IMG/VR virus record: IMGVR_UViG_3300045988_180675
Location: 135,478 to 199,477 of that record
DNA: 64,000 nucleotides
Direction: 5' to 3' (one strand)
Source of the DNA: a virus
Every line of letters begins with the position of its first letter. Within the stretch, counting starts at the first letter, position 1. Position numbers and translations under genes: made by a program. Of the stretch, positions 241-62,680 are shown piece after piece. The notes beneath the pieces were generated by a model, which searched no databases, had not been told where the DNA came from, and saw nothing but the letters and a program-made list of their open reading frames with translations.

Positions 241-253
241 TATATTATGCTAT
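241..253 (-). promoter_or_regulatory. Box-1, exact copy (plus TATATTATGCTAT = minus ATAGCATAATATA)
   Basis: Exact 13-mer. It follows terminator hairpin 268..287 and lies 15 nt upstream of the ATG at 226. Confidence 0.6.
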
Positions 254-260
254 ATCCAAA

Positions 261-287
261 AGAAAAAGTAGAGAATTTCTTCTCTAC
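261..287 (-). terminator. Rho-independent terminator after the hydrolase gene
   Basis: 8-bp stem gtagagaa/ttctctac (268..275 / 280..287) followed on the minus strand by a T-run (reverse complement of agaaaaa). Confidence 0.7.
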
Positions 288-294
288 TGTTTAC

Positions 295-3200
295 TCACTC
301 CGTAGGATTGTAGCCTGCTGGTGGATGGAACCCGTATGTCCAGCCACTCCAATCTGTAGGACCTTCACTGATTTCTTCACCAGTTTGGTCGCCGCCGATC
401 GCACCTTGTACGCCACCTACTTCATCGATATGGGCACCAACTGTTCTGCCGCCACCAATATAGATTTCTGTATGTTCTTGCCGCCACAAGATGTCTCCTG
501 GTCTTAGATCATCTGGAGATGTGATTTCGTACTGGACGAAGCCTGCTTCAGTCATTAGGTTGATCTGACTATAGGTTGAGAATGCTGGTGGTCCGACATT
601 AAATCCAGCTTGTGTAAGGGCATAATAAACTAGTGATGAGCAGTCGTAGTCTGGGTTTCCTAAACGATGAACCCAAGAATATCCATGTGAATCATCTGCA
701 GCAATTTCTCTTGCCCATTTTACATAAGGTAAATTAGAAATACCACCAAAGCCATCTGCCCATTCTGGGTTTGCATTTCCGCCAACATAACCAAATGAAA
801 GAGCCCTGATTTTGACATTAAATACCTTTTCAAAGTCGCTAGAGCGTAACGCAATATAACTTTGTACTAGCTTGTCCCCATAAGTCTTGTTTGATAGATC
901 CCAAGAATAGTTAAACATCTTGTCGTTTTCTTCTAATTTTGCAAGATCACATAGAACTGGGATCTTGACCGTTGCGACGATCTTCTTCCCATTAACTTCT
1001 ACTTTGTTTCCTTCTTCATCTGTCCAACTTTCCTTTTGCCCACTGGCAGTTGTTCTAAGTTCTACTGTGATACCCTGACCATGACCTGCAATTGCATAAT
1101 CTGCTAATGTGACACAATACTTTTGGAAATGGTAGTTATCCTTTGGATCACCACTGTATCCAGCCACGGCACCCATACTTAGGATTTCTTTTACAAACAA
1201 TAGTTGTCCAGCTCCAGAACTACTTGATGTTCCCGATGTTCCTGCTTGTACGACATCGATTGCTCCAGCACCCGTTACTTCAACGTTGGCTAGATCAACC
1301 TCCATGTTTTCTGGAATCTTTTCATCGATCCATTCCTTATATTTTGCATGTCTTGAATTGTATAAGGAAGCACCGATTTGGCTACCTTCATTACGCTTTT
1401 TCAAATTCTTTAAAATATTTTCTGTACTGTAATCTCCATTACAAGCTTGGAATACTGCATCTACAGGGCTAGAAGCATAATCGCCTCCCCCAAGTTCTGC
1501 TAGTTGGGTATACCAAAATACAGCTCTTAAATTCGTTGTGTAAGTATTGGCACAATAATTCCAATGTTTTACCACACGTTCTGCTGCAATTCTATCTTGT
1601 AGCTTTTTACCTTCGCTGCTTGTTAAAATTTTCTTTACAACTTCTGTTTGTTCAGCATTTAGTTCTATCCGATCTGCTTCCCAATCCTTCTCAAGAAGAG
1701 GAGCGATGATTCCATTACTATCGAGTTCGGAGAACTTACTTTGGTTTTCGCTTCTGAATCTTGTTAAATAATTTCTTGCATTATTTCCATATAAAGAACT
1801 CCAACCAATTGTAGAAGCCACTTCTCCACCTGCTTCAGCGTTGATTACATTACTATAATCTCTCTGCCCATAAACCTGTCCGCCAGTTTCCATGGCACCA
1901 AGCATATTTAACATGATATCCATTTGCGTTTCAGAGCCAAGTTTAGCGGAAGAATCGCCAGATGTATTCTGGATCGTTGTATTTGTTTTGGCAGCTTTAC
2001 CAGCTGTGCCATTTGGAAATACAATATCGCTTTCTGGACTTAATAAGAATTTATCATTTCCGATCGTATTTCCTTCCCCATCTACAAAGTCATAGGTAGG
2101 AATCACGGCAGATACGCCGATGTTCTTTTTAAATAATCCAGAAAAAATACTTCCATTTTTATCGGTTTTGCTACCAGACAAATTGTATTCAGCTGAGAAA
2201 TTCTTTAAATTTGACATTGTGATGCTGCCTGCATCGATCTCTGCCCCATCTAAGGTAGCCTTTGTAATTGTAATATCTTGTAATGGAACGTAATCGGATC
2301 CAGCCTTCTTCTTTTCTTCTTCTGTAAGGGTTTCTCCCTTTAAGATCTTGTAATAAGCCTTCAAGCGTTCCTGCAACATGTTTGCCATTTCTTGCATCAT
2401 GTTCTCATCTTTATCTGCTGACGACTTATTTACAGCTTGTACAGGTTGGACGATATGGGTATTGTTACTTCTGATTCTGCCCTGATACAAAGCTGTACCA
2501 CCAAAGATTCCACCCATCGTCACGGATGTTGCAAGACCTGCTGTAAGAGCCTTTTTACCAATACTCTGTACAATAGCTTTTCCGCCATTCGCAATGCCCT
2601 GTGGGCTGAATATGTTTTGACTAGGTGTAACATTTCCTCTTCTTGCAAGGAACTGTTTCATCTTGCTGGCTTCTTTGTCTGCCCTTGCAAGGGAGCCTTC
2701 TCTTTGTGCCCCAATTAAACTATCTTTACCTGTAAGAACCTTATCTTTATCCCCGATAGCTCCTGTTGATATTTTATCTTTTACTAATGTTCTTTTTTCC
2801 GTTGAAAGCTGCTGTCCTGCATCTACGTTGACTTCTCCTCCACTAATTTTAACAAGCTTCTTCTTTTCTGGTTGAAGAACGGATTTTTCTTGTGATGGTT
2901 TTAGTTTCTTAGCAATGCCTGCATCGTATTCTTTCTGAGAGATATATCGCATGGTGCCATCAGCACGCTTTTCAATGAATCGCCCTGATGATTTCAGATA
3001 CTCGACATTTTCTTTTGGACCTGGTGAATTTATAATGCCAGAACTTTGTCCAATGGAATTCTTCTCACTTATCGAAGAAATACCTGGCATGTTGTTTCTT
3101 GTGATGTTTGAGATTGCATCTTTTAACTTCTTCGCTTTTTGTTCATCAATTGACTTTTGCTGTTCTAAAAATGAATTTTTTACAATCTGTTTATTAGGTT

Positions 3201-4881
3201 GAGCAATTTGACGTTCATTCTTTATAACCCGCTTATTATCTGTAGGTACATTTACCTTTTTCATTAATCCACTGCGGTCAAAATTTTGTTGTTGTGTAAT
3301 TGCTCCGCTATCGCCTTGACTAAAAGCTCCACTTGAGAAATCATTCTTACTTGATATTCCACTATTTATATTTGGTTTGTTATCTGTAATATTTGGATGA
3401 TTGTTTGGAATATCTCCAATTTGTTTCTTCGCTATATTTTCAGGGCTAATATTTCTTTTAACATTCGCAATATTTTTATTGATCTTATTTAATAATTCTT
3501 GTTCTTTTTCAGCTACATGTTGGATAACTTCACTACTATATTTTTGTTTATTAACAACTTTATTTACATCTGTCTTTAATCCACTAAAGTTACCTTCTAG
3601 TTTATCTTCGATAAATGTTTCTTTCTGGGAGAATGCTTCATTACTAAAGTTTTGGTGAGAATCAATTCCAGTTCTACCAATATTCGTATTTTGTGCTTGT
3701 TGATTCTTAAACCCACTATTTTCCTGAATAATATTCTTATCTGCATTCTTAACTACTTGCTTATTTCCTGTGTGGGTATTCGATAATCTTTCATTGATCT
3801 TATCTGATAGTCTTTGACGCTCATAACTAAGTGCATCTGATGGCTGCTCTTTTGTAGCCGTAGAGAAAGCGTCATTACTTAATTCTTTGTTTAAATTTGA
3901 AAAGACTTCTTGTTGAGCCTGTGGAAAGGTTCTTTCCCTTACTCTTTCCTCATTTAAAAACTTATGGTCAGCCTTTGCTGCATGCTCTTGCTTAGCAGCT
4001 TTCTTATCAATATCATTGTTGATCCGTTTTGCTAGTTGTTGTCTTTCATATTCGATCGGATCAGAAGCTGTTGCTGTATCAATCTGTGAAAAAGCATCCC
4101 TATTGAGTTCTGTTGGGGGCTCAATATTTTGTCTAAACTCTCTTGACGGCTGATCAAAATAGTTATTGTTTAAACGTTGCTCTTTAAAGCCTTCTCTTCC
4201 GTTAGGGGTCTTTTTAATTTCTTTATTTAATTTTTCTGATAATCTTCTTTGTTCGTATTCAATTGGGTTAGATGCCTCTGGGACATCTTCAATATTATCT
4301 TCTAATAGGTTCTCAACGCTATCCCCATGAGGCTTATTTAAAGGGTTAAATTGAGCCGATTGTGACTCTAATGGAGTACGTTCCAATCTGTTCTCAAACG
4401 GCTCTGTACTGCTATTTAACATCGCTTCTTGTTTGTTTAATAACTCTTGTTCTCTGTATTGTTGTTTGATTAATTCTTTACGATGTTCTTCTTGTTGTTT
4501 TTTAAAAAAATCTTCTTTTGCTTTTTTCTCTTTTTCACCTGAGAATCTTGCGTGATCCTTTTCTACATCGATTTCTTTTGGTTCATCAACTTTGTCTGTG
4601 TTTTCTTCTAAATCCTTATCATCTTCATTTGGTTCTTCTTCTAAATCTTCATTACTATCATCTTGATCCTGATCACGCTCTAATTCATCCTTATCATCAT
4701 CTTCTGATTTTTCTTCTTCGTTTCCTTCTTTTTCAGTATCTTCTTCAGAAGCTTCTTCATCGTCCATGCTTAAAGCATCTCCTAGATCTGGAGACTGTTC
4801 TTCTTTTTCTTCACTGCCAGAACCTTCGCTTGGTTCAATGTCATCAGTTTCTTTTATTTCTTTCTCATTGATTTCTGTCAT
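295..4881 (-). CDS. conjugation-associated cell-wall hydrolase, C-terminal NlpC/P60 domain (CwlT/TcpG/PrgK-like role)
   Basis: SD AAAGGAG upstream of the ATG. The C-terminus carries the NlpC/P60 pattern (DYDCSSLVYYALTQAGF ... EHTEIYIGGG). One hydrophobic segment (TMGGIFGGTALY) follows a roughly 750-aa acidic/polar N-terminal region. The gene sits beside T4SS genes. Confidence 0.8.
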   Translation of the reverse strand: MTEINEKEIKETDDIEPSEGSGSEEKEEQSPDLGDALSMDDEEASEEDTEKEGNEEEKSEDDDKDELERDQDQDDSNEDLEEEPNEDDKDLEENTDKVDEPKEIDVEKDHARFSGEKEKKAKEDFFKKQQEEHRKELIKQQYREQELLNKQEAMLNSSTEPFENRLERTPLESQSAQFNPLNKPHGDSVENLLEDNIEDVPEASNPIEYEQRRLSEKLNKEIKKTPNGREGFKEQRLNNNYFDQPSREFRQNIEPPTELNRDAFSQIDTATASDPIEYERQQLAKRINNDIDKKAAKQEHAAKADHKFLNEERVRERTFPQAQQEVFSNLNKELSNDAFSTATKEQPSDALSYERQRLSDKINERLSNTHTGNKQVVKNADKNIIQENSGFKNQQAQNTNIGRTGIDSHQNFSNEAFSQKETFIEDKLEGNFSGLKTDVNKVVNKQKYSSEVIQHVAEKEQELLNKINKNIANVKRNISPENIAKKQIGDIPNNHPNITDNKPNINSGISSKNDFSSGAFSQGDSGAITQQQNFDRSGLMKKVNVPTDNKRVIKNERQIAQPNKQIVKNSFLEQQKSIDEQKAKKLKDAISNITRNNMPGISSISEKNSIGQSSGIINSPGPKENVEYLKSSGRFIEKRADGTMRYISQKEYDAGIAKKLKPSQEKSVLQPEKKKLVKISGGEVNVDAGQQLSTEKRTLVKDKISTGAIGDKDKVLTGKDSLIGAQREGSLARADKEASKMKQFLARRGNVTPSQNIFSPQGIANGGKAIVQSIGKKALTAGLATSVTMGGIFGGTALYQGRIRSNNTHIVQPVQAVNKSSADKDENMMQEMANMLQERLKAYYKILKGETLTEEEKKKAGSDYVPLQDITITKATLDGAEIDAGSITMSNLKNFSAEYNLSGSKTDKNGSIFSGLFKKNIGVSAVIPTYDFVDGEGNTIGNDKFLLSPESDIVFPNGTAGKAAKTNTTIQNTSGDSSAKLGSETQMDIMLNMLGAMETGGQVYGQRDYSNVINAEAGGEVASTIGWSSLYGNNARNYLTRFRSENQSKFSELDSNGIIAPLLEKDWEADRIELNAEQTEVVKKILTSSEGKKLQDRIAAERVVKHWNYCANTYTTNLRAVFWYTQLAELGGGDYASSPVDAVFQACNGDYSTENILKNLKKRNEGSQIGASLYNSRHAKYKEWIDEKIPENMEVDLANVEVTGAGAIDVVQAGTSGTSSSSGAGQLLFVKEILSMGAVAGYSGDPKDNYHFQKYCVTLADYAIAGHGQGITVELRTTASGQKESWTDEEGNKVEVNGKKIVATVKIPVLCDLAKLEENDKMFNYSWDLSNKTYGDKLVQSYIALRSSDFEKVFNVKIRALSFGYVGGNANPEWADGFGGISNLPYVKWAREIAADDSHGYSWVHRLGNPDYDCSSLVYYALTQAGFNVGPPAFSTYSQINLMTEAGFVQYEITSPDDLRPGDILWRQEHTEIYIGGGRTVGAHIDEVGGVQGAIGGDQTGEEISEGPTDWSGWTYGFHPPAGYNPTE

Positions 4882-4906
4882 TTAAAGATGCTCCTTTCGT
4901 ACATCT

Positions 4907-4919
4907 TATATTATGCTAT
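4907..4919 (-). promoter_or_regulatory. Box-1, exact copy
   Basis: Exact 13-mer, 25 nt upstream of the ATG at 4881 and directly downstream (minus sense) of terminator 4934..4961. Confidence 0.6.
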
Positions 4920-4933
4920 TTTTCATAAAATCA

Positions 4934-4961
4934 AAAAGAAAAAGACTATATTTTTAGTCTT
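4934..4961 (-). terminator. Rho-independent terminator belonging to the gene remnant
   Basis: Stem aagacta/tagtctt (4942..4948 / 4955..4961) plus a T-run on the minus strand. It is a near copy of terminator 6503..6534. Confidence 0.65.
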
Positions 4962-4968
4962 TTCTTCT

Positions 4969-5046
4969 TTAATCCATATTCTTGTGAACTGCTTTGCATA
5001 CTAAATACACGATTATCATGTATACCAAATATATGATTATCGCCAG
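4969..5046 (-). pseudogene. 3-prime remnant of a paralogue of gene 6520..7260, truncated at the IS right end
   Basis: Own translation gives ...LAIIIYLVYMIIVYLVCKAVHKNMD*, comparable to the C-terminus ...LVIIIYMAYKAVCQIWIKEKRLDK* of 6520..7260. The downstream terminator is also duplicated. Homology stops at the IS boundary near 5046. Confidence 0.5.
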
Positions 5047-5260
5047 TCAACTACCCACCACCTAAAGGTAGTGGGCTTGTAACTGCCCAGTCGTACTAGC
5101 GGCTTACGCCTCCGACCTTTAACCCCAATGAGCATTGCTACTCAAAGTGGCGTTACATCATAGGATGGTTGACACAACACCCTTTACGATAAAGTTTACT
5201 CTACCGTAACTGTATCTGGTACTTGAGCTTCTTTGAGATAGCTGATTCCCATGTGATACA
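5028..5260 (-). ncRNA. probable TnpB omega RNA (right-end RNA) with guide running into the flank
   Basis: A visibly G+C-richer, structured stretch lies immediately 3-prime of and overlapping the tnpB end. A 9-bp subterminal hairpin CCCACTACC-TTTA-GGTGGTGGG (reverse complement of 5054..5075) sits 8 nt from the boundary. The call rests on position and family knowledge only. Confidence 0.4.
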
Positions 5261-6495
5261 GATTCATAGCTCCAATGCGATCATCGTTAGAACTGTAGCC
5301 ACAGTTTTTACAAGTAAACAGATGTATCTTCTTGTTTCGATTAGACTTTTCAATATGTCCACATACAGGGCAACATTGACTTGTGTAACGAGGATCAACC
5401 TTAATAACAGTCGATTGATTCTGTTTTGCCTTGTAAATCAGTTTTTGTTCAAGGTCATAGAATGACCACGATACAGATACATAACGATCTTTTGTTTTAA
5501 CACGTTCTGTAACACTACGAATACCTGTCAGATCTTCAAGAACAAAGAGTGTATGCTTCGGATTAGATTCAACGAGTGCCTTACTAATGCAATGATTAAC
5601 ATCTTGCATCCAACGGTTTTCTCGCTGACCGATAGCTTTCAATCTGCGTCTTGCAGATGGAGTCTGACGCTTTTGTAGTTCTTTACGGAGCTTGGAGTAG
5701 TGGGCACGTTTCTGTTTGATAGATCTGCCACTTACAAATCCAGATTTGTGCTTACTATCATAAGTAGCAATAACAAAGTTGATACCTCTATCAATCCCTA
5801 CAACGTTACAGATATCTGATATGTTACTTTCTTCGACCTCATAACTTACAGGGATATGTAAAAAATACTTACCATGCTTATTTACAAGCTTGGCTGTACC
5901 AAACTTATAGGTTGTATGATCGAAGTATTTAGACATGCCCTTTGCAAAGTATGGTAGCTTGACACGACCATCCAGTGTATTAACTGAAAAACAGTTCTGC
6001 GTTAAGGAATAATCTCGATTCCAAACAAGGTCGTATTGAGGCTTATCAAAATTTGGCTTGATCCATTTTTTCTGGTTTTCAAGAATTGTCTTGTACCTTG
6101 CAATAACGGTCTTAAAAACAGATTGAGCCATTTGTGATCTGAGTCCAAATTGTTCTCTAAGTGTAGAGTACAAAACCTGATTCAAAGAAAACTGCTTTAA
6201 GTTCTTTGTATTAAATATATATTCAGATACAAAATTACAGGCATCAGAATAGGCAGACATCGTTTTATCAAGTAAAGCTTTACTGTCTGTATCAACTGAT
6301 ATTTGGATTTTAGCTGTAACTGTCATCCGCTCCATAAATAAACCTTATTGTCCTTTCATTAAATATAGTATATACTATTATTAGTGAAAGTCAACAACTT
6401 TGAGGGGATTCAACTAAGGTTGATACTTACAAACTTATAAGGCTCCTCCCCCGCCCAATGGCAGTGGGTTTCCGCAGATAGAATAGGGAGGACTT
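5046..6495 (-). mobile_element. IS200/IS605-family element carrying tnpB only (IS1341-like, no tnpA)
   Basis: Intact tnpB is flanked by related subterminal imperfect hairpins (left end AAACCCACTGCC..., right end AAGCCCACTACC...). There is no Y1 transposase ORF. The right boundary is placed where similarity to the second copy at 63841 begins. The left boundary is approximate (plus or minus 10 nt). Confidence 0.65.
5196..6335 (-). CDS. tnpB: TnpB (OrfB) RNA-guided endonuclease
   Basis: 379 aa. RuvC-like motifs are present (GIDRGINF, VLEDLTG, NDDRIGAMN) together with a zinc ribbon (CPVCGH...CKNCG). This is typical IS605 OrfB architecture. Confidence 0.9.
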   Translation of the reverse strand: MERMTVTAKIQISVDTDSKALLDKTMSAYSDACNFVSEYIFNTKNLKQFSLNQVLYSTLREQFGLRSQMAQSVFKTVIARYKTILENQKKWIKPNFDKPQYDLVWNRDYSLTQNCFSVNTLDGRVKLPYFAKGMSKYFDHTTYKFGTAKLVNKHGKYFLHIPVSYEVEESNISDICNVVGIDRGINFVIATYDSKHKSGFVSGRSIKQKRAHYSKLRKELQKRQTPSARRRLKAIGQRENRWMQDVNHCISKALVESNPKHTLFVLEDLTGIRSVTERVKTKDRYVSVSWSFYDLEQKLIYKAKQNQSTVIKVDPRYTSQCCPVCGHIEKSNRNKKIHLFTCKNCGYSSNDDRIGAMNLYHMGISYLKEAQVPDTVTVE

Positions 6496-6502
6496 TATTT
6501 AT

Positions 6503-6534
6503 AAAAGAAAAGAAAAAGACTATTTATCTAGTCT
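6503..6534 (-). terminator. Rho-independent terminator of gene 6520..7260
   Basis: Stem agacta/tagtct (6517..6522 / 6529..6534) overlapping the stop codon, with a T-run on the minus strand. Confidence 0.6.
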
Positions 6535-7536: not shown

Positions 7537-7577
7537 ATTTTACCATAAAGGATATTATCTTGCAATATACTGTTATG
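7537..7577 (-). promoter_or_regulatory. sigma-A-type promoter TTGCAA-N17-TAAAAT (TGg extended -10) with abutting ATACTGTTAT box
   Basis: -10 at 7537..7542 and -35 at 7560..7565, read on the minus strand. The box ATATACTGTTAT lies at 7565..7576. Confidence 0.65.
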
Positions 7578-7589
7578 TCATTTTTAGCA

Positions 7590-8295: not shown

Positions 8296-8393
8296 TTGAT
8301 TTTCCTCCTATAGCCATTTTGGCTTTATTATTTCCCACCTTATTCGAATCTTTTCTCCATGATCATCAAATAAAGTCATATTTATTATGCGAT
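8296..8393 (-). promoter_or_regulatory. class-2 conserved leader, copy A
   Basis: Core ttctccatgatcatcaaataaagtcatatttattatgcga (8354..8393) is shared with copies at 36814..36853 and 45316..45354. A hairpin agcca-ttt-tggct (8312..8324) abuts the SD. Confidence 0.6.
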
Positions 8394-8401
8394 ACAAAAG
8401 G

Positions 8402-8429
8402 AAAAGAAAAAGATAGGGGTTTCCTATCT
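8402..8429 (-). terminator. Rho-independent terminator after 8436..11324
   Basis: Stem agatagg/cctatct (8411..8417 / 8423..8429) plus a T-run on the minus strand. Confidence 0.7.
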
Positions 8430-8435
8430 TCTTTC

Positions 8436-11370: not shown

Positions 11371-11383
11371 TATATTATGCTAT
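11371..11383 (-). promoter_or_regulatory. Box-1, exact copy
   Basis: Exact 13-mer, 46 nt upstream of the ATG at 11324 and downstream of terminator 11433..11457. Confidence 0.6.
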
Positions 11384-11432: not shown

Positions 11433-11457
11433 ATAAAAAAGGAGACGGTTTGTCTCC
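11433..11457 (-). terminator. Rho-independent terminator after the VirB4 operon
   Basis: Stem ggagac/gtctcc (11441..11446 / 11452..11457) plus a minus-strand T-run. Confidence 0.75.
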
Positions 11458-14331: not shown

Positions 14332-14334
14332 AGA

Positions 14335-15896: not shown

Positions 15897-15909
15897 TATA
15901 TTATGCTAT
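15897..15909 (-). promoter_or_regulatory. Box-1, exact copy
   Basis: Exact 13-mer, 46 nt upstream of the ATG at 15850 and downstream of terminator 15927..15953. Confidence 0.6.
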
Positions 15910-28873: not shown

Positions 28874-28886
28874 TATATTATGCTAT
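28874..28886 (-). promoter_or_regulatory. Box-1, exact copy, extended to an inverted repeat TATGCTA-ttt-TAGCATA
   Basis: Exact 13-mer, 23 nt upstream of the ATG at 28850. The palindrome spans about 28880..28896. Confidence 0.6.
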
Positions 28887-36760: not shown

Positions 36761-36854
36761 TTTTCCTCCTTAGCCCTCTTCGGCTTTTTTATTTTCTGCC
36801 TTATTTAACAACGTTCTCCATAATCATCAAATAAAGTCATATTTATTATGCGAG
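36761..36854 (-). promoter_or_regulatory. class-2 conserved leader, copy B
   Basis: The core at 36814..36853 is nearly identical to 8354..8393. A hairpin agcc-ctcttc-ggct (36772..36785) abuts the SD. Confidence 0.6.
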
Positions 36855-41099: not shown

Positions 41100-41112
41100 G
41101 ATATTATGCTAT
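41100..41112 (-). promoter_or_regulatory. Box-1, one mismatch (gatattatgctat)
   Basis: Lies 145 nt upstream of the adhesin ATG at 40954, implying an unusually long leader. Confidence 0.5.
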
Positions 41113-43873: not shown

Positions 43874-43886
43874 TTTATTATGCTAT
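43874..43886 (-). promoter_or_regulatory. Box-1, one mismatch (tttattatgctat)
   Basis: Lies 21 nt upstream of the topB ATG and immediately after leader terminator 43892..43925. Confidence 0.55.
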
Positions 43887-45287: not shown

Positions 45288-45354
45288 ATCATTTTCCTCC
45301 TTAGCCTATCAGCTTTATCCATGATCATCAAATAATTACAATTGTATTATGCAA
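45288..45354 (-). promoter_or_regulatory. class-2 conserved leader, copy C (shorter)
   Basis: The core at 45316..45354 (tatccatgatcatcaaataattacaattgtattatgcaag) is related to copies A and B. A hairpin agct-gata-ggct (reverse complement of 45303..45314) abuts the SD. Confidence 0.55.
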
Positions 45355-45382
45355 GAAATAAGAAATTAAAAAAAAGAAGAGA

Positions 45383-51136: not shown

Positions 51137-51149
51137 TATATTATGCTAT
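51137..51149 (-). promoter_or_regulatory. Box-1, exact copy
   Basis: Exact 13-mer, 27 nt upstream of the ATG at 51109. The extended identity AAAAATAGCATAATATAAGATGTA is shared with the copy at 4907. Confidence 0.6.
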
Positions 51150-51182
51150 TTTTATAGAAAATTGAGAACAAAAAAAGATGGG

Positions 51183-54132: not shown

Positions 54133-54145
54133 TATATTATGCTAT
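54133..54145 (-). promoter_or_regulatory. Box-1, exact copy
   Basis: Exact 13-mer, 25 nt upstream of the ATG at 54107 and after terminator 54151..54178. Confidence 0.6.
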
Positions 54146-54150: not shown

Positions 54151-54178
54151 AAAAAGAAAAGAAGGCTTTTTCGCCTTC
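54151..54178 (-). terminator. Rho-independent terminator closing the kinase cassette
   Basis: Stem gaaggc/gccttc (54161..54166 / 54173..54178) plus a T-run on the minus strand. Confidence 0.7.
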
Positions 54179-54181
54179 TTT

Positions 54182-54781
54182 TTAATTGGCGTTATAAAAT
54201 TCTTCGTCATCGACAACAAATTGGCGTGTCTTCTTGAGTGTTTCTTGTTTTTCTTCACTTCCTTTTGTCTTGAAGGAATCAGCAATATTATTCGTACCAA
54301 GGAATCCTGTCTCATCATCATCCGTGGCTGCTAGAGCGGTTGTTTCTGCTTCACCAAGTTCTCCAGTAGGAGCTTGATTTGCATCCAATAAAGAAGTTTC
54401 CTCTTCTCCTGTAGACAGCATTGTTGTTTCGGTGTTACCACTATCCAATAAAGAGGTTTCTTCTTTCCCACTTTCTAAAGGAATCGGTTCTTTCTGTTCT
54501 TTCTTTATACCTTTTTCTTGAATTGACTTCTTAATGTTTTCTACACGTTTAGAAAGTTCTGCGGAAGAGGAATTTGCATGAGGTTCATTTTTAATTTTTT
54601 GCACTTTCTTCTCTTCCTTTTTTATTCTGCGACTAAAGTTTTTGTCTCGTTGCTTTAAAAGGGCTTTGTAGCCCCATGGCTTCAAAATAAACCCAACGGC
54701 AATAAAAATGATAACAAGCAGCACTCCGATAATCAAACACCAGAATCCGATTATTTTTAATAAGTTTACGGTTTTTAACAT
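54182..54781 (-). CDS. bitopic membrane protein with five cytoplasmic E-T-[ST]-x-L threonine repeats (candidate kinase substrate / FHA ligand)
   Basis: N-terminal TM followed by a basic stretch, then KEETSLLD, NTETTMLS, EEETSLLD, EAETTALA and DDETGFLG within about 55 aa. Confidence 0.7.
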   Translation of the reverse strand: MLKTVNLLKIIGFWCLIIGVLLVIIFIAVGFILKPWGYKALLKQRDKNFSRRIKKEEKKVQKIKNEPHANSSSAELSKRVENIKKSIQEKGIKKEQKEPIPLESGKEETSLLDSGNTETTMLSTGEEETSLLDANQAPTGELGEAETTALAATDDDETGFLGTNNIADSFKTKGSEEKQETLKKTRQFVVDDEEFYNAN

Positions 54782-54786
54782 ATTCT

Positions 54787-56508
54787 CTATTTTTTCTCCT
54801 GTTGATTGCTTCGATCAGAATATACCACGTCTAAATTGCTCTTTGCAGCTTTGATATTTGTCATGATCTGATCATATAACTCAACTTCATCACCCTTTAG
54901 ACCGTGGGACTTTAATTCTTCTGTCTTTTTAGATATTGTATCAAGCTCTGATTTGATATCCTCGATTTTAATACCAGCGTTATAGAAGTTGACACCATTG
55001 GTATTTAATTGAAATGTAAGTTCTTTATAAACAACTAACGCTGTTTTGATATTATCCTTCTTTGCAATATCATCAGAAGAGATATCCATCAATTGCTTAT
55101 AAAAGTTTTTGTAATCGACCTTTGTATCTCCAGCCTTATTTACATTTCCAGATTGGATATAGTAATCTGCGACCTGATAAAACTTCGATGCTCTTTCTTT
55201 CTTTTGTTCTTCTAATGAAGAACTATTTCTTGCGATATCGAACCATGGTTTACTTAACTGCTTGTTTCCATCCGTTTCATAATAGTAAAAGTAGGCTAGT
55301 CCCATATTATACGCAAAATCATCGTATCCTTCTGAATTTCCATCTTTAAATCTATCCTGTACGGTCTTTCCATTTGTCTTATAGCCGACAAGGCTTGTTA
55401 GCTGGTTGGCTTCATTCTGACTAAAGTTTCCATCCTTCAGATATACATTATCCAAAAGTTCATCAAATGCCTCTGCTCTTGTTGGATCCAGTTTAATCGC
55501 ATCTGAGTAATTTTTGATTTGATCTTCATCTGTTACTGAGATACGTGCATTTTGAAGTTCTTCATCATAGGTATTTGCCAATAATGAATCTGCGTATAAT
55601 CTAAGTCCAGTTGAAATCGAACATAATAAGATTCCAACAAATCCGATCGTCATCCATCTATGATACGTTGCTGTCTGCTTCTTTAATGATTCAACCTCAA
55701 GCTCTTGATAATGTTCTAGGGCAAATTCCAATTCTTCTACCGTTTGATATCTATCATCAGGGTTATTTGCAATACATTTTAAAATGATTGATTCAAGACC
55801 AGATGATAGCGTCTTATCAATTCTTCTAATAGGAAGAAATTCATACGGAGGTTTTGTTGGGTTTTTCCCAGTGACAAGATGATACATCGTAGCACCAAGA
55901 TTATAGATATCTGTTCTAGCATCTGATTGATGGTGCTGTTCTCCTTGGAATTGTTCAGGAGCAGCGTAGCCTCTGGTTCCTAAGAAGGTTGTATCTCCAT
56001 CCTGTCCCCCCTTGTATTCTCTTGCTGTACCAAAGTCGATCAACATAATATTTCCATCTGGTTTTAACATGATGTTCCCTGGTTTCATATCACGGTAAAT
56101 GATCGGAGGATTTAGTCCGTGCAGATATTTTAAAACCGAACATATCTGTAATGACCAATCCACGACATCTTCTTGAGATTGTTTTCCCTGCTCTTTCAAG
56201 ATGTCACTCAATGTTCTACCTTCAATATAGTCCATAACGATCAAGAAAGTATCATCCTGATCAAAGATATCGACAATACTAGGTAAATGTTCATGCTTTA
56301 GGTGACGAAGGATATTTGCCTCTGTAACAAGGTTTTGCTTGATGATCTGCGAAGTTGCGGAAGTAGATGTTTTTTTGACTTCCTTAATTGCCCACTGCTT
56401 ATTCACCTTTTCATTGATGGCTAACCAGACCGTACTCATTCCACCTTGTCCAGTTCGGTTAATAATTTTGTATTTGCCATCTACTAGGTCCCCTATTCGA
56501 AGTCCCAT
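54787..56508 (-). CDS. Hanks-type Ser/Thr protein kinase, membrane-spanning, non-PASTA extracellular domain
   Basis: G-loop GQGGMSTVW, AIKEV lysine, catalytic loop YRDMKPGN, DFG, APE. A TM (WMTIGFVGILLCSISTGL) is followed by a roughly 270-aa helical/TPR-like C-terminal region. Confidence 0.9.
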   Translation of the reverse strand: MGLRIGDLVDGKYKIINRTGQGGMSTVWLAINEKVNKQWAIKEVKKTSTSATSQIIKQNLVTEANILRHLKHEHLPSIVDIFDQDDTFLIVMDYIEGRTLSDILKEQGKQSQEDVVDWSLQICSVLKYLHGLNPPIIYRDMKPGNIMLKPDGNIMLIDFGTAREYKGGQDGDTTFLGTRGYAAPEQFQGEQHHQSDARTDIYNLGATMYHLVTGKNPTKPPYEFLPIRRIDKTLSSGLESIILKCIANNPDDRYQTVEELEFALEHYQELEVESLKKQTATYHRWMTIGFVGILLCSISTGLRLYADSLLANTYDEELQNARISVTDEDQIKNYSDAIKLDPTRAEAFDELLDNVYLKDGNFSQNEANQLTSLVGYKTNGKTVQDRFKDGNSEGYDDFAYNMGLAYFYYYETDGNKQLSKPWFDIARNSSSLEEQKKERASKFYQVADYYIQSGNVNKAGDTKVDYKNFYKQLMDISSDDIAKKDNIKTALVVYKELTFQLNTNGVNFYNAGIKIEDIKSELDTISKKTEELKSHGLKGDEVELYDQIMTNIKAAKSNLDVVYSDRSNQQEKK

Positions 56509-57281
56509 TCTTCATCCCCCATTCTAAACGCTAATACCGTGATATTGTCTTTTTCGTTTCTTTCTTTTGATAGCTCTACGATTTTTTCTAATTGAGCTTT
56601 TAGCTCCTCATTAGACTTTGTAGATTCAAGTGAAAGCGTGGACGCCATCTCTTTTTCACTTACGACATGGACAAATCCATCGCTACAAACAAGAAAGAGT
56701 GTGTTGTTGGCGTATTTGCCAGTGTAGAACTGTGGTGATGGAAGTTGATTTCCTGCTCCGCAACATTGCATTAAAACGCTTCTATCTTTATGCGTTAGAG
56801 CCTCTTCTTTTGTGATAGCTTTCGTATCAATCAGATATTGGACAACGCTATGATCATGTGTAATCTGTTCAAGCTCTTTAGAACCTTCATCCAGCTTGTA
56901 ACCACGAGAGTCTCCAACATTGAATGCAATATACATATTCTTCATTACAAACATGCCAACGACGGTTGTTCCGCCTTGTTGCCGTCCAAGCTCTTTTTTA
57001 ATTTCGGTATGTAACTCTTCAGTTGCTTTTGTTATGGAATCTTTGAAACCATCAACGCTAAACCCCTGTTCAAATAACACATTCAAATCACTTACGAACC
57101 AATTCTTAAATTTTTCAACTGCTAAACGTGAAGCAGCTTCTCCACGGGACATTCCTCCCATGCCATCTGCGACCATCGCAAACACAATGAGTTCTCCATC
57201 TAGGCGAGCTGTTTTTAATAAGAGGGCATCTTGGTTTGTCGCCTTTTTGATGCCCTTATCTGTACAATATGCTTTAATCAT
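56493..57281 (-). CDS. PP2C-family Ser/Thr phosphatase
   Basis: NQDALL, VADGMGGMSRGEAAS, VGDSRGY, SDGF and DNITVL motifs. Confidence 0.9.
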   Translation of the reverse strand: MIKAYCTDKGIKKATNQDALLLKTARLDGELIVFAMVADGMGGMSRGEAASRLAVEKFKNWFVSDLNVLFEQGFSVDGFKDSITKATEELHTEIKKELGRQQGGTTVVGMFVMKNMYIAFNVGDSRGYKLDEGSKELEQITHDHSVVQYLIDTKAITKEEALTHKDRSVLMQCCGAGNQLPSPQFYTGKYANNTLFLVCSDGFVHVVSEKEMASTLSLESTKSNEELKAQLEKIVELSKERNEKDNITVLAFRMGDEEWDFE

Positions 57282-57285
57282 AGAA

Positions 57286-59001
57286 CTAGTCCTCGATAAA
57301 TAACTGGAAGCGAACGTTGGAGAATTGAATCAGCATTCCATTTGTTAATTTTACTGGTGTGTATTCTGGAATTGGTCTTCCATTGATATATGTAAAATTC
57401 TTCGAACCGAGATCTTCGATACAAATCTCTCCATCTACGATATGGAACGTTGCATGTGTTCTACTGATCGTTGTATTTCCAGAAATACAATAATCTACCT
57501 TTGCACGCTCTTTACCAATAATGAAACCATCCTTGGTAATGTTTACCTGTTCACCAGTATCCTGTCTGATCATGTATACATTCTTTGTTAATGGAGAACT
57601 TGAAAGCAATGTCGTTCCTTCTGCTCCATCGTCTAAAATATTAGCTCCTTCATCTTCTCTTGCATAATCAAGATCTGTACGAGCTTCTTTTGTAATACGC
57701 ATGCTTCTTGGAGCGGATTGGACTGTAATATCCATGTCATCCATATCAACACGTCTACCTGTCTTATTATCAACTAAGTGTGGATCGTGATTCAAGTTTC
57801 CTAATTCTTGTGAGAAGTCTTCTTCGTAATCTTCTTGTTCTTTTAAGATTTCTGCTTCTAACTTCTGACGCTTCTTCTTTTGAACATTTAATATTGCAAC
57901 GATAATTGCAATTGCTACCACTCCACCAAATACATAAGGCAAGAATGGGAATTTCTGTAACAGTCCTTTTGTTTCAAGAGCATCTTGTGCGTCCTTGATA
58001 TCTGTAACCGCAGCATCAATCTTCTTTTGTGTACGGCTGTCATCTTCTAATAGGTCCTTACCTGCCTTGATTGCGTCATTTAACTTCTCAACAGATTGAG
58101 GTGTGTATTCACTAGTATCAACATCTTCAGCTGACTTGATTGCCTTTTCAAGCTCATCGGTATCTAAAGAAGACAATTCTTCCTTCTTACGTTTTTCATC
58201 AAGCTTTTCTTTATTTTCTTTTTCCTTTTCTGTTGAAACCTGACCTTCTGTCTTATATTCAATTCCGTTTTCACTCAGTACACTTTGGATACGCTCGTTT
58301 GGAATAAAGTATGAGTTGTTATCTACAGAAGAGGATACGATTCCCATAATACTGTACTTACTATTTACGATTGGGGATCCTGTTGCTACTGCCGTATTGC
58401 CTGCAAAGATATATTCCTCGCTGGTTTGTGACTTTGCTGTTACAGTTCCATCGAGCGATACAACGGCGTTCTTTTCTACATACAATGCTTTTGCTGGAGC
58501 ATTTGTTTCTAGTCCTGCATTGGTATCCGTGAAACTCATGTATTGAGCTTGCTTTGATGCAAGACCGATAACCCCAACCCCTTGTTTAAAATTCTTGGTT
58601 GTGATTTCAACCTTGGAGCCTGTAGCGGTAGAAACTTTGATCTTAATGTGTGGAGCTGTTTCCTTCTCACTCTTCAGTGAAATTCCTAGCTTTTCATAAG
58701 CATCTCCTTTTTCAGATAAAATCTTTTTGTATAAAAGGCTAGATGTTGTATCATCCGTTAAGGTTTCGGTTGTTACCATATCACTTTCTGAAACCATGGT
58801 ACCTGTACCTGATGCCCATACATCAAAGGAACCATCAGAGAACTCATATCCGATCTGAATATTCATGATCGCCTTTTCTGGAATTGCCTCGATCGTATCA
58901 GCTGTCTTAGAAGTGCCTTCTTCCGCATGAACCATTGTTGGCATCATAACCAAACAAGAAGCAGCTACAACTTTTAATATATTCTTTTTAATATTGAACA
59001 T
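57286..59001 (-). CDS. bitopic FHA-domain protein with extracellular trypsin-like pseudo-protease domain
   Basis: Signal peptide and an ectodomain resembling S1-family proteases. The His position reads TTETL and the Ser position reads ATGSPIVN instead of G.SGGP. A coiled coil and TM (FPFLPYVFGGVVAIAIIVAIL) follow. A cytoplasmic EGTTLLS motif is followed by an FHA domain (IIGKER...ISRTHA...SKNFTYINGR). Confidence 0.8.
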   Translation of the reverse strand: MFNIKKNILKVVAASCLVMMPTMVHAEEGTSKTADTIEAIPEKAIMNIQIGYEFSDGSFDVWASGTGTMVSESDMVTTETLTDDTTSSLLYKKILSEKGDAYEKLGISLKSEKETAPHIKIKVSTATGSKVEITTKNFKQGVGVIGLASKQAQYMSFTDTNAGLETNAPAKALYVEKNAVVSLDGTVTAKSQTSEEYIFAGNTAVATGSPIVNSKYSIMGIVSSSVDNNSYFIPNERIQSVLSENGIEYKTEGQVSTEKEKENKEKLDEKRKKEELSSLDTDELEKAIKSAEDVDTSEYTPQSVEKLNDAIKAGKDLLEDDSRTQKKIDAAVTDIKDAQDALETKGLLQKFPFLPYVFGGVVAIAIIVAILNVQKKKRQKLEAEILKEQEDYEEDFSQELGNLNHDPHLVDNKTGRRVDMDDMDITVQSAPRSMRITKEARTDLDYAREDEGANILDDGAEGTTLLSSSPLTKNVYMIRQDTGEQVNITKDGFIIGKERAKVDYCISGNTTISRTHATFHIVDGEICIEDLGSKNFTYINGRPIPEYTPVKLTNGMLIQFSNVRFQLFIED

Positions 59002-59030: not shown

Positions 59031-59043
59031 TATATTATGCTAT
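59031..59043 (-). promoter_or_regulatory. Box-1, exact copy
   Basis: Exact 13-mer, 29 nt upstream of the ATG at 59001. Confidence 0.6.
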
Positions 59044-60213: not shown

Positions 60214-60265
60214 ATTTTCTTTTCATTTTCCTTCCTTTTTTTTTAACCTACTCTTCAATTTGTAT

Positions 60266-60345
60266 CCTAAATTTAATGTCCCAGTTGTCATATATACGCA
60301 GTATCGTACTGCTTTTTCTCTGGGAGAAAATTTTTGAGAAAATCC
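60266..60345 (-). promoter_or_regulatory. duplicated leader with twin hairpins, copy 1
   Basis: Palindrome GCAGTA-CGA-TACTGC (60298..60312) is adjacent to the inverted repeat TTTTCTC-N3-GAGAAAA (60314..60330). Homologous to 61636..61718. Confidence 0.6.
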
Positions 60346-60377
60346 ACGTTTTTTGCAGATTTTCTCTTCTCATTCCT

Positions 60378-60406
60378 AGTATATACTGCTATTTTTAATT
60401 TTGCAA
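60378..60406 (-). promoter_or_regulatory. sigma-A-type promoter TTGCAA-N17-TATACT
   Basis: -10 at 60378..60383 and -35 at 60401..60406. The spacer contains ATAGCAGTATAT, a hybrid of the two box types. Confidence 0.55.
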
Positions 60407-60434
60407 TAAAAAAATAGGAATTATCTCCTATTTT

Positions 60435-61598: not shown

Positions 61599-61635
61599 AT
61601 TTATTCCTTTTCTTATTCCTTTTTCTTAATTAGAA

Positions 61636-61718
61636 CCTAAAATTCAATTTTGAGCCTGTCATAAATACGCAGTATCGTACTGCTTTTTTCTCTTGAGAAA
61701 ATTTCAGAAGAAAATGCC
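61636..61718 (-). promoter_or_regulatory. duplicated leader with twin hairpins, copy 2
   Basis: Palindrome GCAGTA-CGA-TACTGC (61669..61683) plus the inverted repeat TTTTCTC-N2-GAGAAAA (61686..61701). Confidence 0.6.
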
Positions 61719-61759
61719 TATTTTTCAACGTTTTGGGCAATTTCTTCTCTACAAAATAT

Positions 61760-61788
61760 ATTGTACATCACGCCTACAAAGAAAGCAA
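61760..61788 (-). promoter_or_regulatory. possible promoter TTGCTT-N17-TACAAT
   Basis: -10 at 61760..61765 and -35 at 61783..61788, read on the minus strand. A weaker match than the others. Confidence 0.4.
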
Positions 61789-61826
61789 TGGGCAAGTTGC
61801 TTGGCAATAAAAAAGAAGAAACCAAT

Positions 61827-61970: not shown

Positions 61971-62032
61971 TTTTAATTTCTCCCTTCTTTTATATTTTTT
62001 TACATAACAATCAGAATTACTGGAATTCTGCT

Positions 62033-62332
62033 TTAACCGATATACTTGGCTATTACAACGAAAGCTGAAAGACAACATGAGATAAATGCCAAGAAAAGCA
62101 TTAAAATCCCAACCGCCATGTCCTCCTCCTCGTTTGTACTGCAAAATATAGCCACGAACAGATTTGAGCATGGGAACAACAATGTTACCAACCCGATCGC
62201 CAAGTTGCCCTTGATAAATATCTCTTCACTTTGTAATAAATAGCTAACGATATATACGATGGCTGTTATTGTTGCCCATATTATCCAGATAATCTTTTTC
62301 TCTTTTGCTGTGTCGTCCATTACCATTCCCAT
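62033..62332 (-). CDS. membrane protein (about 97-99 aa, three hydrophobic segments)
   Basis: The true start is probably the 3rd or 5th codon (ATG at 62326 or 62320), given SD AAAGG at 62334..62338. Confidence 0.55.
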   Translation of the reverse strand: MGMVMDDTAKEKKIIWIIWATITAIVYIVSYLLQSEEIFIKGNLAIGLVTLLFPCSNLFVAIFCSTNEEEDMAVGILMLFLAFISCCLSAFVVIAKYIG

Positions 62333-62335
62333 CCT

Positions 62336-62611
62336 TTACATAAACCTCTTCGTGAGGATCAATATGATTAACGATACCCCAGCCAATACGGCTGCCGTCA
62401 ATTCTGTTTCGAATGTATCTTCGTGTGTCTTTTTGTATAGTAGAAACTCCAAGCCGTTCTTGAATGGGATCGCAGCGAAGAAAATTCCAGAAACAAAAGC
62501 TGTGATCATTAGGAATATCGATTGTTTATACAGTAAAGCAGCTGCAATCGCTAACGCTAAAAGCAAGATCCAGATATTTACTAATACTCTCATTTTTCTT
62601 CGCATATTCAT
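62336..62611 (-). CDS. membrane protein (91 aa, three hydrophobic segments)
   Basis: SD AAAGGAGAA. A Box-1 variant TAGCATATAATAAG (reverse complement of about 62636..62649) lies upstream. Confidence 0.6.
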   Translation of the reverse strand: MNMRRKMRVLVNIWILLLALAIAAALLYKQSIFLMITAFVSGIFFAAIPFKNGLEFLLYKKTHEDTFETELTAAVLAGVSLIILILTKRFM

Positions 62612-62680
62612 ATATTTTTCTCCTTTTCTATACCCTTATTATATGCTAAAAAGAAAGTAAAGTCAAGAAAAAAGAGCTTT

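What the first reader, a model, noticed from the sequence alone, without database searches (positions are those of the whole stretch)
241..62649. Element-wide 13-nt box ATAGCATAATATA placed between terminator and ribosome-binding site of transfer and surface genes
The plus-strand 13-mer TATATTATGCTAT occurs exactly 8 times: 241, 4907, 11371, 15897, 28874, 51137, 54133 and 59031. One-mismatch copies lie at 41100 and 43874, and looser variants at 8381, 36842, 45342, 19517 and about 62638. Every copy has the same orientation as the minus-strand genes. Each lies 15-46 nt upstream of a start codon (145 nt for the 1351-aa adhesin), usually right after a terminator hairpin.

The box contains a -10-like hexamer (CATAAT/TAATAT), but I could not find a consistently spaced -35. 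This suggests either a -35-independent promoter class with an extended ATAGCA upstream element or a common regulator site. Chance occurrence of eight identical 13-mers is negligible.
Basis: seen in the sequence. Interest (0 to 1): 0.7.

Follow-up and report, generated by a model that had tools for sequence, protein, structure and literature searches.

The report
Plasmid-wide promoter box without −35
A 13-base sequence repeated in front of the DNA-transfer and cell-surface genes of a roughly 200-kb gut-bacterial conjugative plasmid is most likely the core of a special promoter class that lacks the usual upstream (−35) half, and related plasmids each carry their own version of it, which points to a still unidentified reader that evolves together with the plasmid.

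Summary
TATATTATGCTAT occurs exactly 8 times (0 expected). All copies are on the + strand, so they read ATAGCATAATATA in the sense of the minus-strand genes. All are intergenic, 14-46 nt before a start codon (145 nt once), and mostly just after a terminator hairpin.

The box is best read as the −10 region of a −35-less promoter that starts at least 10 terminator-insulated transcription units. These encode the T4SS operon, giant surface proteins, an FHA/PP2C/kinase operon and a topoisomerase. Canonical TTGnnn-17-(TGn)TATAAT promoters in the same element drive other, mostly small, genes, so two promoter classes coexist.

The box is the conserved island in otherwise diverged intergenic DNA of relatives with 80% VirB4 identity. 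More distant relatives (33-69% VirB4 identity) carry different repeated boxes of the same shape at orthologous positions: a lineage-specific pentamer followed by CATA, in 13 types. Box type follows the VirB4 clades.

This argues for a reader that co-evolves with the plasmid. None was found: no Pfam sigma-70 domain in about 110 kb of this lineage or in an 83-kb relative. Host sigma-A alone, or an operator role, remain possible.

The element resembles the "Hodor" gut megaplasmids. The box is not described in the literature I could search.

The parts
241..253 (-). Exact box ATAGCATAATATA, 14 nt before the start of a 266-aa gene that runs off the left end of the window
   Evidence: terminator at 267-288 just upstream
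4907..4919 (-). Exact box, 25 nt before the 1528-aa protein (295-4881; C-terminal NlpC/P60-type cell-wall hydrolase)
   Evidence: hairpin plus T-run at 4933-4961
11371..11383 (-). Exact box, 46 nt before the 962-aa SSSPR-51 surface protein (8436-11324); sits just after the VirB4 terminator
   Evidence: (terminator 11441-11457)
15897..15909 (-). Exact box, 46 nt before the T4SS operon (141 aa, 341 aa, PrgI, VirB4; 11476-15850)
   Evidence: (terminator 15936-15953)
28874..28886 (-). Exact box, 23 nt before the 2707-aa LPXTG/SpaA protein (20727-28850), which is followed by a pilin-like 243-aa gene
41100..41112 (-). One-mismatch box ATAGCATAATATC, 145 nt before the 1351-aa SpaA-repeat protein (36899-40954)
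43874..43886 (-). One-mismatch box ATAGCATAATAAA, 21 nt before the topoisomerase gene (41423-43852)
   Evidence: terminator 43902-43925
51137..51149 (-). Exact box, 27 nt before the 1908-aa Big_3 surface protein (45383-51109)
   Evidence: hairpin 51173-51196, scored on the + strand only
54133..54145 (-). Exact box, 25 nt before a 974-aa secreted protein (ATG at 54107; 51183-54107)
   Evidence: (terminator 54157-54182)
59031..59043 (-). Exact box, 29 nt before the FHA / PP2C phosphatase / Ser-Thr kinase / 199-aa operon (54182-59001); no terminator upstream
8381..8393 (-). Subclass B box ATCGCATAATAAA followed by the conserved leader TATGACTTTATTTGATGATCATGGAGAA; precedes the 204-aa gene
36842..36854 (-). 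Subclass B box CTCGCATAATAAA with the same leader; precedes the 239-aa gene
45343..45355 (-). Subclass B box CTTGCATAATACA with a related leader; precedes the 91-aa Cas_VVA1548-like gene and two small genes
62638..62666 (-). Canonical promoter TTGACT-17-TATAAT whose spacer ends in TTAGCA ('class D'); not a −35-less box
   Evidence: three homologous copies in L492
60378..60406 (-). Canonical promoter TTGCAA-17-TATACT that contains ATAGCAGTATATA; a look-alike, not a member of the box class

Best explanation
The 13-bp box is the core (−10-region) element of a promoter class that works without a −35 hexamer.

Each copy starts its own transcription unit, and most are insulated from the gene upstream by an intrinsic terminator. 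Together the boxes form one regulon of the plasmid's structural genes: the T4SS operon, the cell-wall hydrolase, five giant surface proteins, the FHA/PP2C/kinase operon and the topoisomerase.

The box holds a −10-like hexamer, either CATAAT (box positions 5-10) or TAATAT (positions 7-12), plus 4-6 invariant bases directly upstream. Those upstream bases take over the role of the missing −35.

Related plasmids have replaced the upstream bases at all their promoters in concert while keeping the CATA core. I therefore infer that the box is read by RNA polymerase together with a specificity factor that co-evolves with the plasmid lineage. That factor would be a divergent sigma-like protein or some other factor that contacts the −18 to −13 region, and it was not identified here.

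Shown: occurrence, orientation, placement, absence of a −35, conservation, and lineage-specific variants.
Inferred: promoter function, the position of the transcription start, and the existence of a dedicated reader.
For: Occurrence and placement:
- 8 exact and 2 one-mismatch copies, all co-oriented and all intergenic.
- 14-46 nt from the start codon, mostly right after terminators.
- No −35 by consensus scan, while canonical TTGnnn-17-TATAAT promoters are found elsewhere in the same DNA.

Conservation:
- The box is the conserved island in diverged intergenic regions of relatives with 80% VirB4 identity. Only position 4 varies (G/A).
- Further copies lie outside the window in a 92-95% identical IMG/VR contig.

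Family-wide pattern:
- 24 of 66 related VirB4 loci have their own gene-strand, intergenic repeat of the form NNNNN-CATA, with at least 3 copies and 0 of 200 shuffles reaching that count. There are 13 types.
- Examples: TTTTACTCTGACATAYT x9 in L146, and 27 sites of [A/T]ATCATACT in the 83-kb record MT835474, 13 of them the exact 12-mer AAAAATCATACT.
- The site just after the VirB4 terminator carries the lineage's box in most relatives.
- Box type follows the VirB4 clades.

Precedent: plasmids can carry their own promoter consensus, as in the SigN regulon of pBS32 (PMC6751061). The promoter consensus of sigma factors encoded on conjugative transposons of Clostridia is still unknown (PMC7438776).
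Against: - No transcription start site or expression data were available, so promoter function is inferred from sequence only.
- No sigma-70 Pfam domain, and no other candidate reader, was found. The material searched was the window, about 46 kb of flanking DNA of the same lineage, 137 ORFs next to VirB4 in 15 relatives, and 54 ORFs of the 83-kb relative.
- The −10 register is ambiguous. Sister lineages fit TnTGn-CATAYT, which is an ordinary sigma-A extended −10 apart from C at −12. Canonical promoters of this lineage instead place AGCA directly before TATAAT.
- The host chromosome could not be examined.
Confidence: 0.6

Rival explanations
1. The boxes are −35-less promoters read by the host's housekeeping sigma-A alone. 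The invariant bases upstream of the hexamer act like an extended −10, and no plasmid factor is involved.
For: - Sister lineages have T[A/G]TGG-CATACT and TCTG[A/T]-CATAYT. Apart from C at −12 these match the Gram-positive TnTGn extended −10.
- In C. difficile, 245 transcription starts have TGNTATAAT with a weak or absent −35 (PMC7438776).
- Class D promoters of this lineage combine (T)AGCA with a perfect TTGACW-17-TATAAT.
- No plasmid sigma was found.
Against: - The window's box has A, not G, at the position of the TG motif.
- Sigma-A recognition is degenerate, as the varied canonical promoters of the same plasmid show. It therefore does not explain 13 invariant bases.
- It also does not explain why lineages differ at −18 to −13 while each is uniform within itself.
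Confidence: 0.2
2. The box is mainly an operator. A plasmid regulator, for instance the 62-aa XRE protein or the 387-aa HTH protein, binds ATAGCA next to or over a weak −10 and switches the whole regulon on or off.
For: - The XRE gene's own promoter (19894-19922) contains TATAGCA-N7-TGCTATA, which holds the 5' half of the box as an inverted repeat. The left half is kept in relatives.
- In MT835474, 8 box promoters carry a dyad, TATrG-N4-CyATA, exactly 22 nt upstream of the box. Regulators therefore do act at these promoters.
Against: - The box is not dyad-symmetric, and it occurs as a single copy in one fixed orientation.
- The right half of the XRE palindrome is lost in L089.
- An operator would not need to include an invariant −10-like hexamer.
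- An operator role would still leave the promoter itself unexplained.
Confidence: 0.12
3. The box acts at the RNA level in read-through transcripts, as a processing, stabilising or antitermination signal at the start of each cistron. Transcription would then come from a few upstream promoters.
For: - All genes point one way, with terminators between them.
- Processive antitermination is widespread in Gram-positive conjugative elements (PMC8191782).
- Several boxes are followed by a small hairpin.
Against: - The box looks like a −10 region, and in sister lineages like an extended −10.
- No Rfam family matches.
- The distance to the ribosome-binding site varies from 5 to more than 100 nt.
- In MT835474 a dyad sits at a fixed 22 nt upstream, the geometry of promoter control.
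Confidence: 0.05
4. The copies are neutral remnants of a duplicated promoter cassette, or of gene conversion, with no shared function beyond ordinary promoters.
For: Other promoter cassettes in the element are repeated over longer stretches: class B with its leader, and class D with its spacer.
Against: - The flanks of the 13-mer are unrelated between copies.
- The 13-mer stays fixed where flanks have diverged in the relatives with 80% VirB4 identity.
- Independent lineages show the same pattern with different sequences.
Confidence: 0.03

Closest known systems
Extended −10 (TGn) sigma-A promoters of Firmicutes
   Same: They function with a weak or absent −35. Conserved bases directly upstream of the hexamer supply the extra contact. 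They are common in Clostridia, with 245 transcription starts in C. difficile (PMC7438776). Sister plasmid lineages fit TnTGn-CATAYT.
   Different: The window's box has TAG/GCA where TGn should be. If the hexamer is CATAAT, it carries C at −12. Thirteen bases are invariant rather than about 9 degenerate ones. The upstream bases differ between plasmid lineages.
SigN (ZpdN) regulon of Bacillus subtilis plasmid pBS32
   Same: One promoter consensus is repeated before many operons of a large plasmid and is essentially confined to that plasmid. An early sigma-A-driven step switches on a plasmid-specific class (PMC6751061).
   Different: SigN promoters have both −35 and −10 elements, and the sigma gene is known. 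Here there is no −35 and no sigma gene was found.
Phage T4 late promoters (gp55; TATAAATA) and streptococcal ComX cin-box (TACGAATA)
   Same: Both are promoter classes defined by a single extended −10-type box with no −35, read by a dedicated, divergent sigma. This comparison rests on my own knowledge and was not tested here.
   Different: The sequences differ. No homologue of gp55, gp33 or ComX was detected. Those systems belong to a phage and to a chromosomal competence regulon.
Sporulation sigma-E / sigma-K type −10 elements (CATA...)
   Same: The −10 begins with CATA. The window's CATAATATA fits CATAnnnTA. The consensus is recalled from memory and was not tested.
   Different: Those promoters have a −35 element. 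The relatives' boxes (CATACTT, CATATT) do not fit the rest of the consensus. A host sporulation sigma would not explain the lineage-specific upstream bases.
'Hodor' conjugative megaplasmids of the human gut (bioRxiv 2026, PMC12934698)
   Same: A large gut plasmid with T4SS (VirB4, VirD4), several sortases including class B, its own SecY and SecE, and giant surface proteins. It is also found in viral databases.
   Different: GC is 36% rather than 45-47%. Size is about 200 kb rather than about 357 kb on average. Membership was not tested by the Rep/ParA/ParB phylogeny. That paper does not mention promoters or sigma factors.

Membership tests
Canonical sigma-70/sigma-A promoter | −35 hexamer (TTGACA-like, at least 4/6) placed 16-18 bp upstream of a TATAAT-like −10 | tested here: not met
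   The consensus scan finds none at 241, 4907, 11371, 15897, 41100, 43874 or 54133, and only chance-level 4/6 hits at 51137 and 59031. It does find the element's canonical promoters. Upstream flanks are unrelated between copies. Box 28874 lies outside the two scanned stretches; its flank shows no −35 either.
Extended −10 sigma-A promoter | TG at −15/−14, one base upstream of the −10 hexamer | tested here: not met
   The window box has TAG before CATAAT, or GCA before TAATAT. The feature is met, with C at −12, in sister lineages: TRTGG-CATACT and TCTGA-CATAYT.
Extended −10 sigma-A promoter | Functions without a −35 | tested here: inconclusive
   Absence of a −35 is shown by sequence. Function was not tested.
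Regulon of a plasmid-encoded sigma factor (SigN-like) | A sigma-70-family gene on the same replicon | tested here: inconclusive
   No Sigma70 Pfam hit in the window, in the flanks L001, L183 and L495 (the L007 flank has only the precomputed Pfam listing), or in the 83-kb relative.
Regulon of a plasmid-encoded sigma factor (SigN-like) | Promoter consensus confined to the replicon | not testable with these tools
   The host chromosome is unknown.
Operator of a dimeric HTH repressor | Dyad symmetry of the site | tested here: not met
   The box is asymmetric and always in one orientation. The only ATAGCA...TGCTAT inverted repeat in the window is in the XRE promoter.
Known structured RNA element | Match to an Rfam covariance model | tested here: not met
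   No Rfam family reaches its gathering score anywhere in the window.
Hodor megaplasmids | Surface/secretion module (SecY, SecE, class B sortase) together with VirB4 and VirD4 on a large gut plasmid | tested here: met
   SecE, class B sortase, a second sortase, VirB4 and the T4CP are in the window; SecY is in L001.
Hodor megaplasmids | Placement within group G1 or G2 (at least 90% nucleotide identity to members; GC 44.6-47.1%) | tested here: not met
   GC is 33-42% across the window. The Hodor sequences themselves were not available for comparison.

The most novel reading that the evidence does not exclude
A whole family of large conjugative plasmids of gut Firmicutes may run an orthogonal 'late' transcription programme. 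Each lineage would encode its own promoter-specificity factor, one that standard sigma-70 profiles do not recognise. That factor would read a lineage-specific, −35-less box of the form N5-CATA-WW placed before every transfer and surface-protein operon. This would resemble phage late transcription, but on plasmids.
Probability: 0.3. Interest if true: 0.8.

Novelty: new variant of a known kind. Interest (0 to 1): 0.6.

Why it matters
If the boxes are promoters of a single regulon, they give a sequence handle on how a widespread but uncultured class of gut megaplasmids switches on conjugation and remodels the host cell surface.

The lineage-specific boxes could serve three purposes:
- Predicting transcription units in these largely unannotated elements.
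- Classifying the plasmids.
- Finding the unknown reader by covariation between box type and plasmid proteins.

The promoter consensus for transcription factors encoded on conjugative elements of Clostridia has been stated to be unknown (PMC7438776). This family offers many natural variants with which to address that.

Tried and rejected
Identifying the element:
- Megablast of the window against PLSDB plasmids and GenBank phages found nothing.
- The nearest annotated VirB4 proteins are only about 35% identical.

Known RNA genes:
- No Rfam family and no tRNA in the window.

Literature:
- A full-text search for the 13-mer gave one irrelevant hit.

Looking for a dedicated RNA polymerase or sigma:
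- The 1168-aa protein without Pfam hits is an alanine-rich coiled-coil surface protein, not a polymerase.
- The 388-aa ORFan has only close relatives and no hits in PDB, Pfam, NCBIfam or PHROGs.
- The 177-aa and 186-aa proteins are low-complexity and lysine-rich.
- Walking upstream along IMG/VR contig 3300045988_178166 (L183, L492, L495) found surface genes, a dUTPase, a homing endonuclease and small ORFans, but no sigma.
- Pfam scans of 137 ORFs near VirB4 in 15 relatives, and of 54 ORFs of MT835474, also found none.

Other readings that were dropped:
- Sigma-54: the relatives' TGGCATA boxes lack the TTGC 5 nt downstream.
- Recombination site bounding gene cassettes: the presence/absence polymorphism of the 962-aa gene between the window and L091 does not break at the box.
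- The 387-aa and 388-aa proteins as paralogues: no similarity.

Searches that were not informative:
- A scan with the class C operator returned only the two known sites of the relative.
Full report
**1. The observation**

The plus-strand 13-mer TATATTATGCTAT occurs exactly 8 times, at the stated coordinates. None occurred in 100 dinucleotide-preserving shuffles. With up to 2 mismatches there are 14 sites, against 4.4 expected and a shuffle maximum of 10, and every one is on the + strand. On the gene strand the box reads ATAGCATAATATA.

All credible genes but one lie on the minus strand. The 10 copies with at most 1 mismatch are all intergenic. They end 14-46 nt before a start codon, or 145 nt before the 1351-aa protein.

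Intrinsic-terminator-like hairpins lie immediately upstream of most copies. Box 59031 is the exception: it follows the stop codon of the 388-aa gene by 3 nt.

A two-hexamer sigma-70 scan places no promoter at the boxes beyond chance-level 4/6 matches. It does recover the canonical promoters of the element.

**2. What the element is**

The window encodes:
- a Gram-positive type IV secretion set: PrgI/VirB3, a CD1110-type VirB4, a VirD4-type coupling protein and a cell-wall hydrolase;
- a topoisomerase;
- a class B sortase and a second sortase;
- a SecE homologue;
- an FHA / PP2C phosphatase / Ser-Thr kinase operon;
- seven proteins of 960-2700 aa, six of them with repeat, Ig-like, coiled-coil or other surface-protein features (one with an LPXTG anchor) and one the cell-wall hydrolase counted above.

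Identical proteins lie on gut-metagenome contigs of 199,811, 199,422 and 194,762 bp, and a SecY gene sits 7 kb upstream of the window. The similar contig sizes suggest a circular plasmid of about 200 kb. That is an inference.

No match exists in PLSDB or in GenBank phages. A 92-95% identical 178-kb contig is filed in IMG/VR.

The gene content recalls the recently described 'Hodor' gut megaplasmids, which share the SecY/SecE/class B sortase module, VirB4 and VirD4, and are often misfiled as viruses. Those have 45-47% GC against 36% here. That preprint mentions neither promoters nor sigma factors.

**3. Promoter classes in the element**

Reading all intergenic regions shows several repeated promoter types.

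- **Class A** is the box itself.
- **Class B** (8381, 36842, 45343) keeps GCATAATA but differs upstream. It is followed by a shared leader of about 30 nt.
- **Class C** promoters are canonical, TTGnnn-17-TAnnAT, often with TGn. They carry a 10-bp element, ATAACAGTAT, in either orientation within the spacer.
- **Class D** promoters (62638, and three copies upstream of the window in L492) are TTGACW-17-TATAAT with a conserved spacer that ends in nAGCA.

A further stretch upstream (L495) has a run of small genes, each behind a textbook TTGyyw-17-TGnTATAAT promoter. The plasmid therefore uses ordinary sigma-A promoters for other genes: many small ones, but also the sortase-to-coupling-protein operon and the 1168-aa surface protein. 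It uses the −35-less box for the T4SS, surface, kinase and topoisomerase units. The layout resembles early and late promoter classes of phages.

**4. Comparative evidence**

In two relatives with 80% VirB4 identity (L089, L090), the intergenic regions that carry boxes 241, 4907, 11371 and 15897 have diverged. The box remains, and its only variation is G/A at position 4.

I fetched 80 metagenomic loci with VirB4 identities of 34-99%. I then looked for repeated words in them. Many relatives have a different repeated box of the same shape, on the gene strand, after terminators and before ribosome-binding sites:
- T[A/G]TGGCATACTA
- TCTGACATAYT
- TCGTACATATT
- TCTGTCATAT
- AAACTCATATTA
- TTTTTCATATA
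- AAATCCATATA
- TTTTACATATA
- TCTAACATATTTA

Restricted to intergenic DNA, 24 of 66 loci have a gene-strand NNNNN-CATA word present at least 3 times, with 0 of 200 shuffles reaching that count. There are 13 types.

The site directly after the VirB4 terminator carries the lineage's own box in most relatives.

Box type follows the VirB4 tree. It is kept within clades down to 66-80% identity and changes between clades.

The unannotated GenBank record MT835474 (83 kb, human faeces, VirB4 40% identical) has 27 sites of [A/T]ATCATACT. Thirteen are the exact 12-mer AAAAATCATACT. Eight of the 27 have a dyad, TATrG-N4-CyATA, exactly 22 nt upstream. That is the geometry of a regulator site placed in front of a core promoter.

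**5. Mechanism**

The placement, the orientation, the −10-like hexamer, the lack of a −35, the short leaders and the family-wide pattern together make a core-promoter role the best explanation. The Shine-Dalgarno sequence can begin only 5 nt after the box.

The register is not settled.
- **Register A** takes CATAAT as the hexamer. It makes the sister-lineage boxes read TnTGn-CATAYT, the Gram-positive extended −10 with C at −12. It also leaves room for a start site before the closest Shine-Dalgarno sequence.
- **Register B** takes TAATAT as the hexamer. It is suggested by class D promoters, where AGCA directly precedes a TATAAT that is correctly spaced from TTGACW.

In either register the window's box lacks the TG of a sigma-A extended −10.

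Sigma-A recognition is degenerate, as the plasmid's own canonical promoters show. That does not account for 13 invariant bases. It also does not account for the concerted replacement of the −18 to −13 bases between lineages. I therefore favour a reader that co-evolves with the plasmid.

I could not find it. No sigma-70 domain appears in the window, in about 46 kb of flanks of this lineage, near VirB4 in 15 relatives, or in MT835474. Roughly 90 kb of the plasmid was out of reach.

The absence of a recognisable sigma raises the weight of two rivals: host sigma-A alone, and a regulator that binds ATAGCA. The second has one supporting detail. The promoter of the 62-aa XRE gene contains TATAGCA-N7-TGCTATA, although only the left half is conserved in relatives.

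**6. Comparison with known systems**

- The nearest kinds are extended −10 promoters (PMC7438776) and plasmid-confined sigma regulons such as SigN of pBS32 (PMC6751061).
- From my own knowledge, −10-only classes such as T4 late promoters and the ComX cin-box work in a similar way.
- The same C. difficile study states that the promoter consensus of sigma factors carried by conjugative transposons is unknown.
- Processive antitermination, common in Gram-positive conjugative elements (PMC8191782), is the main RNA-level alternative. It does not fit the −10-like nature of the box.

**7. Verdict**

The new points are three:
- the box is one member of a family-wide set of lineage-specific −35-less boxes in large gut conjugative plasmids;
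- it coexists with canonical promoters in the same element;
- no recognisable sigma accompanies it in the DNA examined.

Noticed in passing
window 8296-8435, 36761-36898, 45288-45382; L492:11950-12054: Class B promoters share a conserved leader of about 30 nt (TATGACTTTATTTGATGATCATGGAGAA) and a hairpin just 5' of the Shine-Dalgarno sequence. A similar leader (TGTAATnTTTAGTGATGAT) follows the AAACTCATATTA boxes of the distant relative L125. It could be a regulatory RNA or a leader peptide (MTLFDD...).
   Followed up: partly
window 43988-44016, 41372-41400, 35967-35996, 19623-19651, about 7552-7581: Five canonical sigma-A-type promoters carry the same 10-bp element, ATAACAGTAT or its complement ATACTGTTAT, in the spacer. 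This is probably an operator that defines a second regulon.
   Followed up: partly
window 62638-62666; L492 about 9945-9975, 13505-13535, 17490-17520: A repeated canonical promoter cassette, TTGACW-yTAcTTTCTTTTnAGCA-TATAAT. It shares AGCA with the box and bears on which hexamer of the box is the −10.
   Followed up: partly
window 19894-19922: The promoter of the 62-aa XRE gene holds the inverted repeat TATAGCA-N7-TGCTATA, built from the 5' half of the box. The left half is conserved in L089 and L090; the right half is not. An 84-aa paralogue of this HTH protein lies upstream of the window (L492:14352-14606).
   Followed up: partly
window 60214-60434 and 61599-61826: The 388-aa ORFan gene and the 387-aa HTH gene share about 60 nt of 5' leader (GCAGTACGATACTGCGTATwTATGACA and TTTTCTCnnAGAGAAAAA), although the proteins are unrelated.
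   Followed up: no
window 41148-41342, 35144-35935, 34322-35140; L001:1819-3108: The plasmid encodes its own SecE, SecY, a class B sortase and a second sortase. This matches the surface/secretion module reported for Hodor megaplasmids, but the plasmid has 36% GC and is about 200 kb.
   Followed up: partly
window 4882-6519 and 63841-63982: A TnpB/IS605-type gene (5196-6335) is followed by a structured end containing CCACTACCTTTAGGTGGTGG. A related 142-nt piece lies at 63.85 kb, and a 96% identical copy sits at a different position of the IMG/VR relative, which suggests a small mobile derivative.
   Followed up: no
L146:4297-4808; L128: An array with 66-bp period and a repeat of about 34 nt (TTATATGTTACnnAGAAATAyCTGCTGwTGCAGG) separated by variable spacers. 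It lies upstream of the T4SS genes of a related element and looks like a CRISPR array.
   Followed up: no
window 44031-44327 (+ strand): The only plus-strand gene with a ribosome-binding site is an 80-aa membrane protein behind a perfect TTGACA-17-TATAAT. It is divergent from a class C promoter, in the 510-bp region upstream of the topoisomerase gene.
   Followed up: no
MT835474.1, sites at 3430, 4339, 11037, 11305, 16606, 33465, 41403 and 80283: In this 83-kb relative, 8 of 27 box promoters have the dyad TATrG-N4-CyATA exactly 22 nt upstream of the box. The other 19 have no such dyad, and most of them have an A-run there instead. This gives two sub-regulons on one core box.
   Followed up: partly
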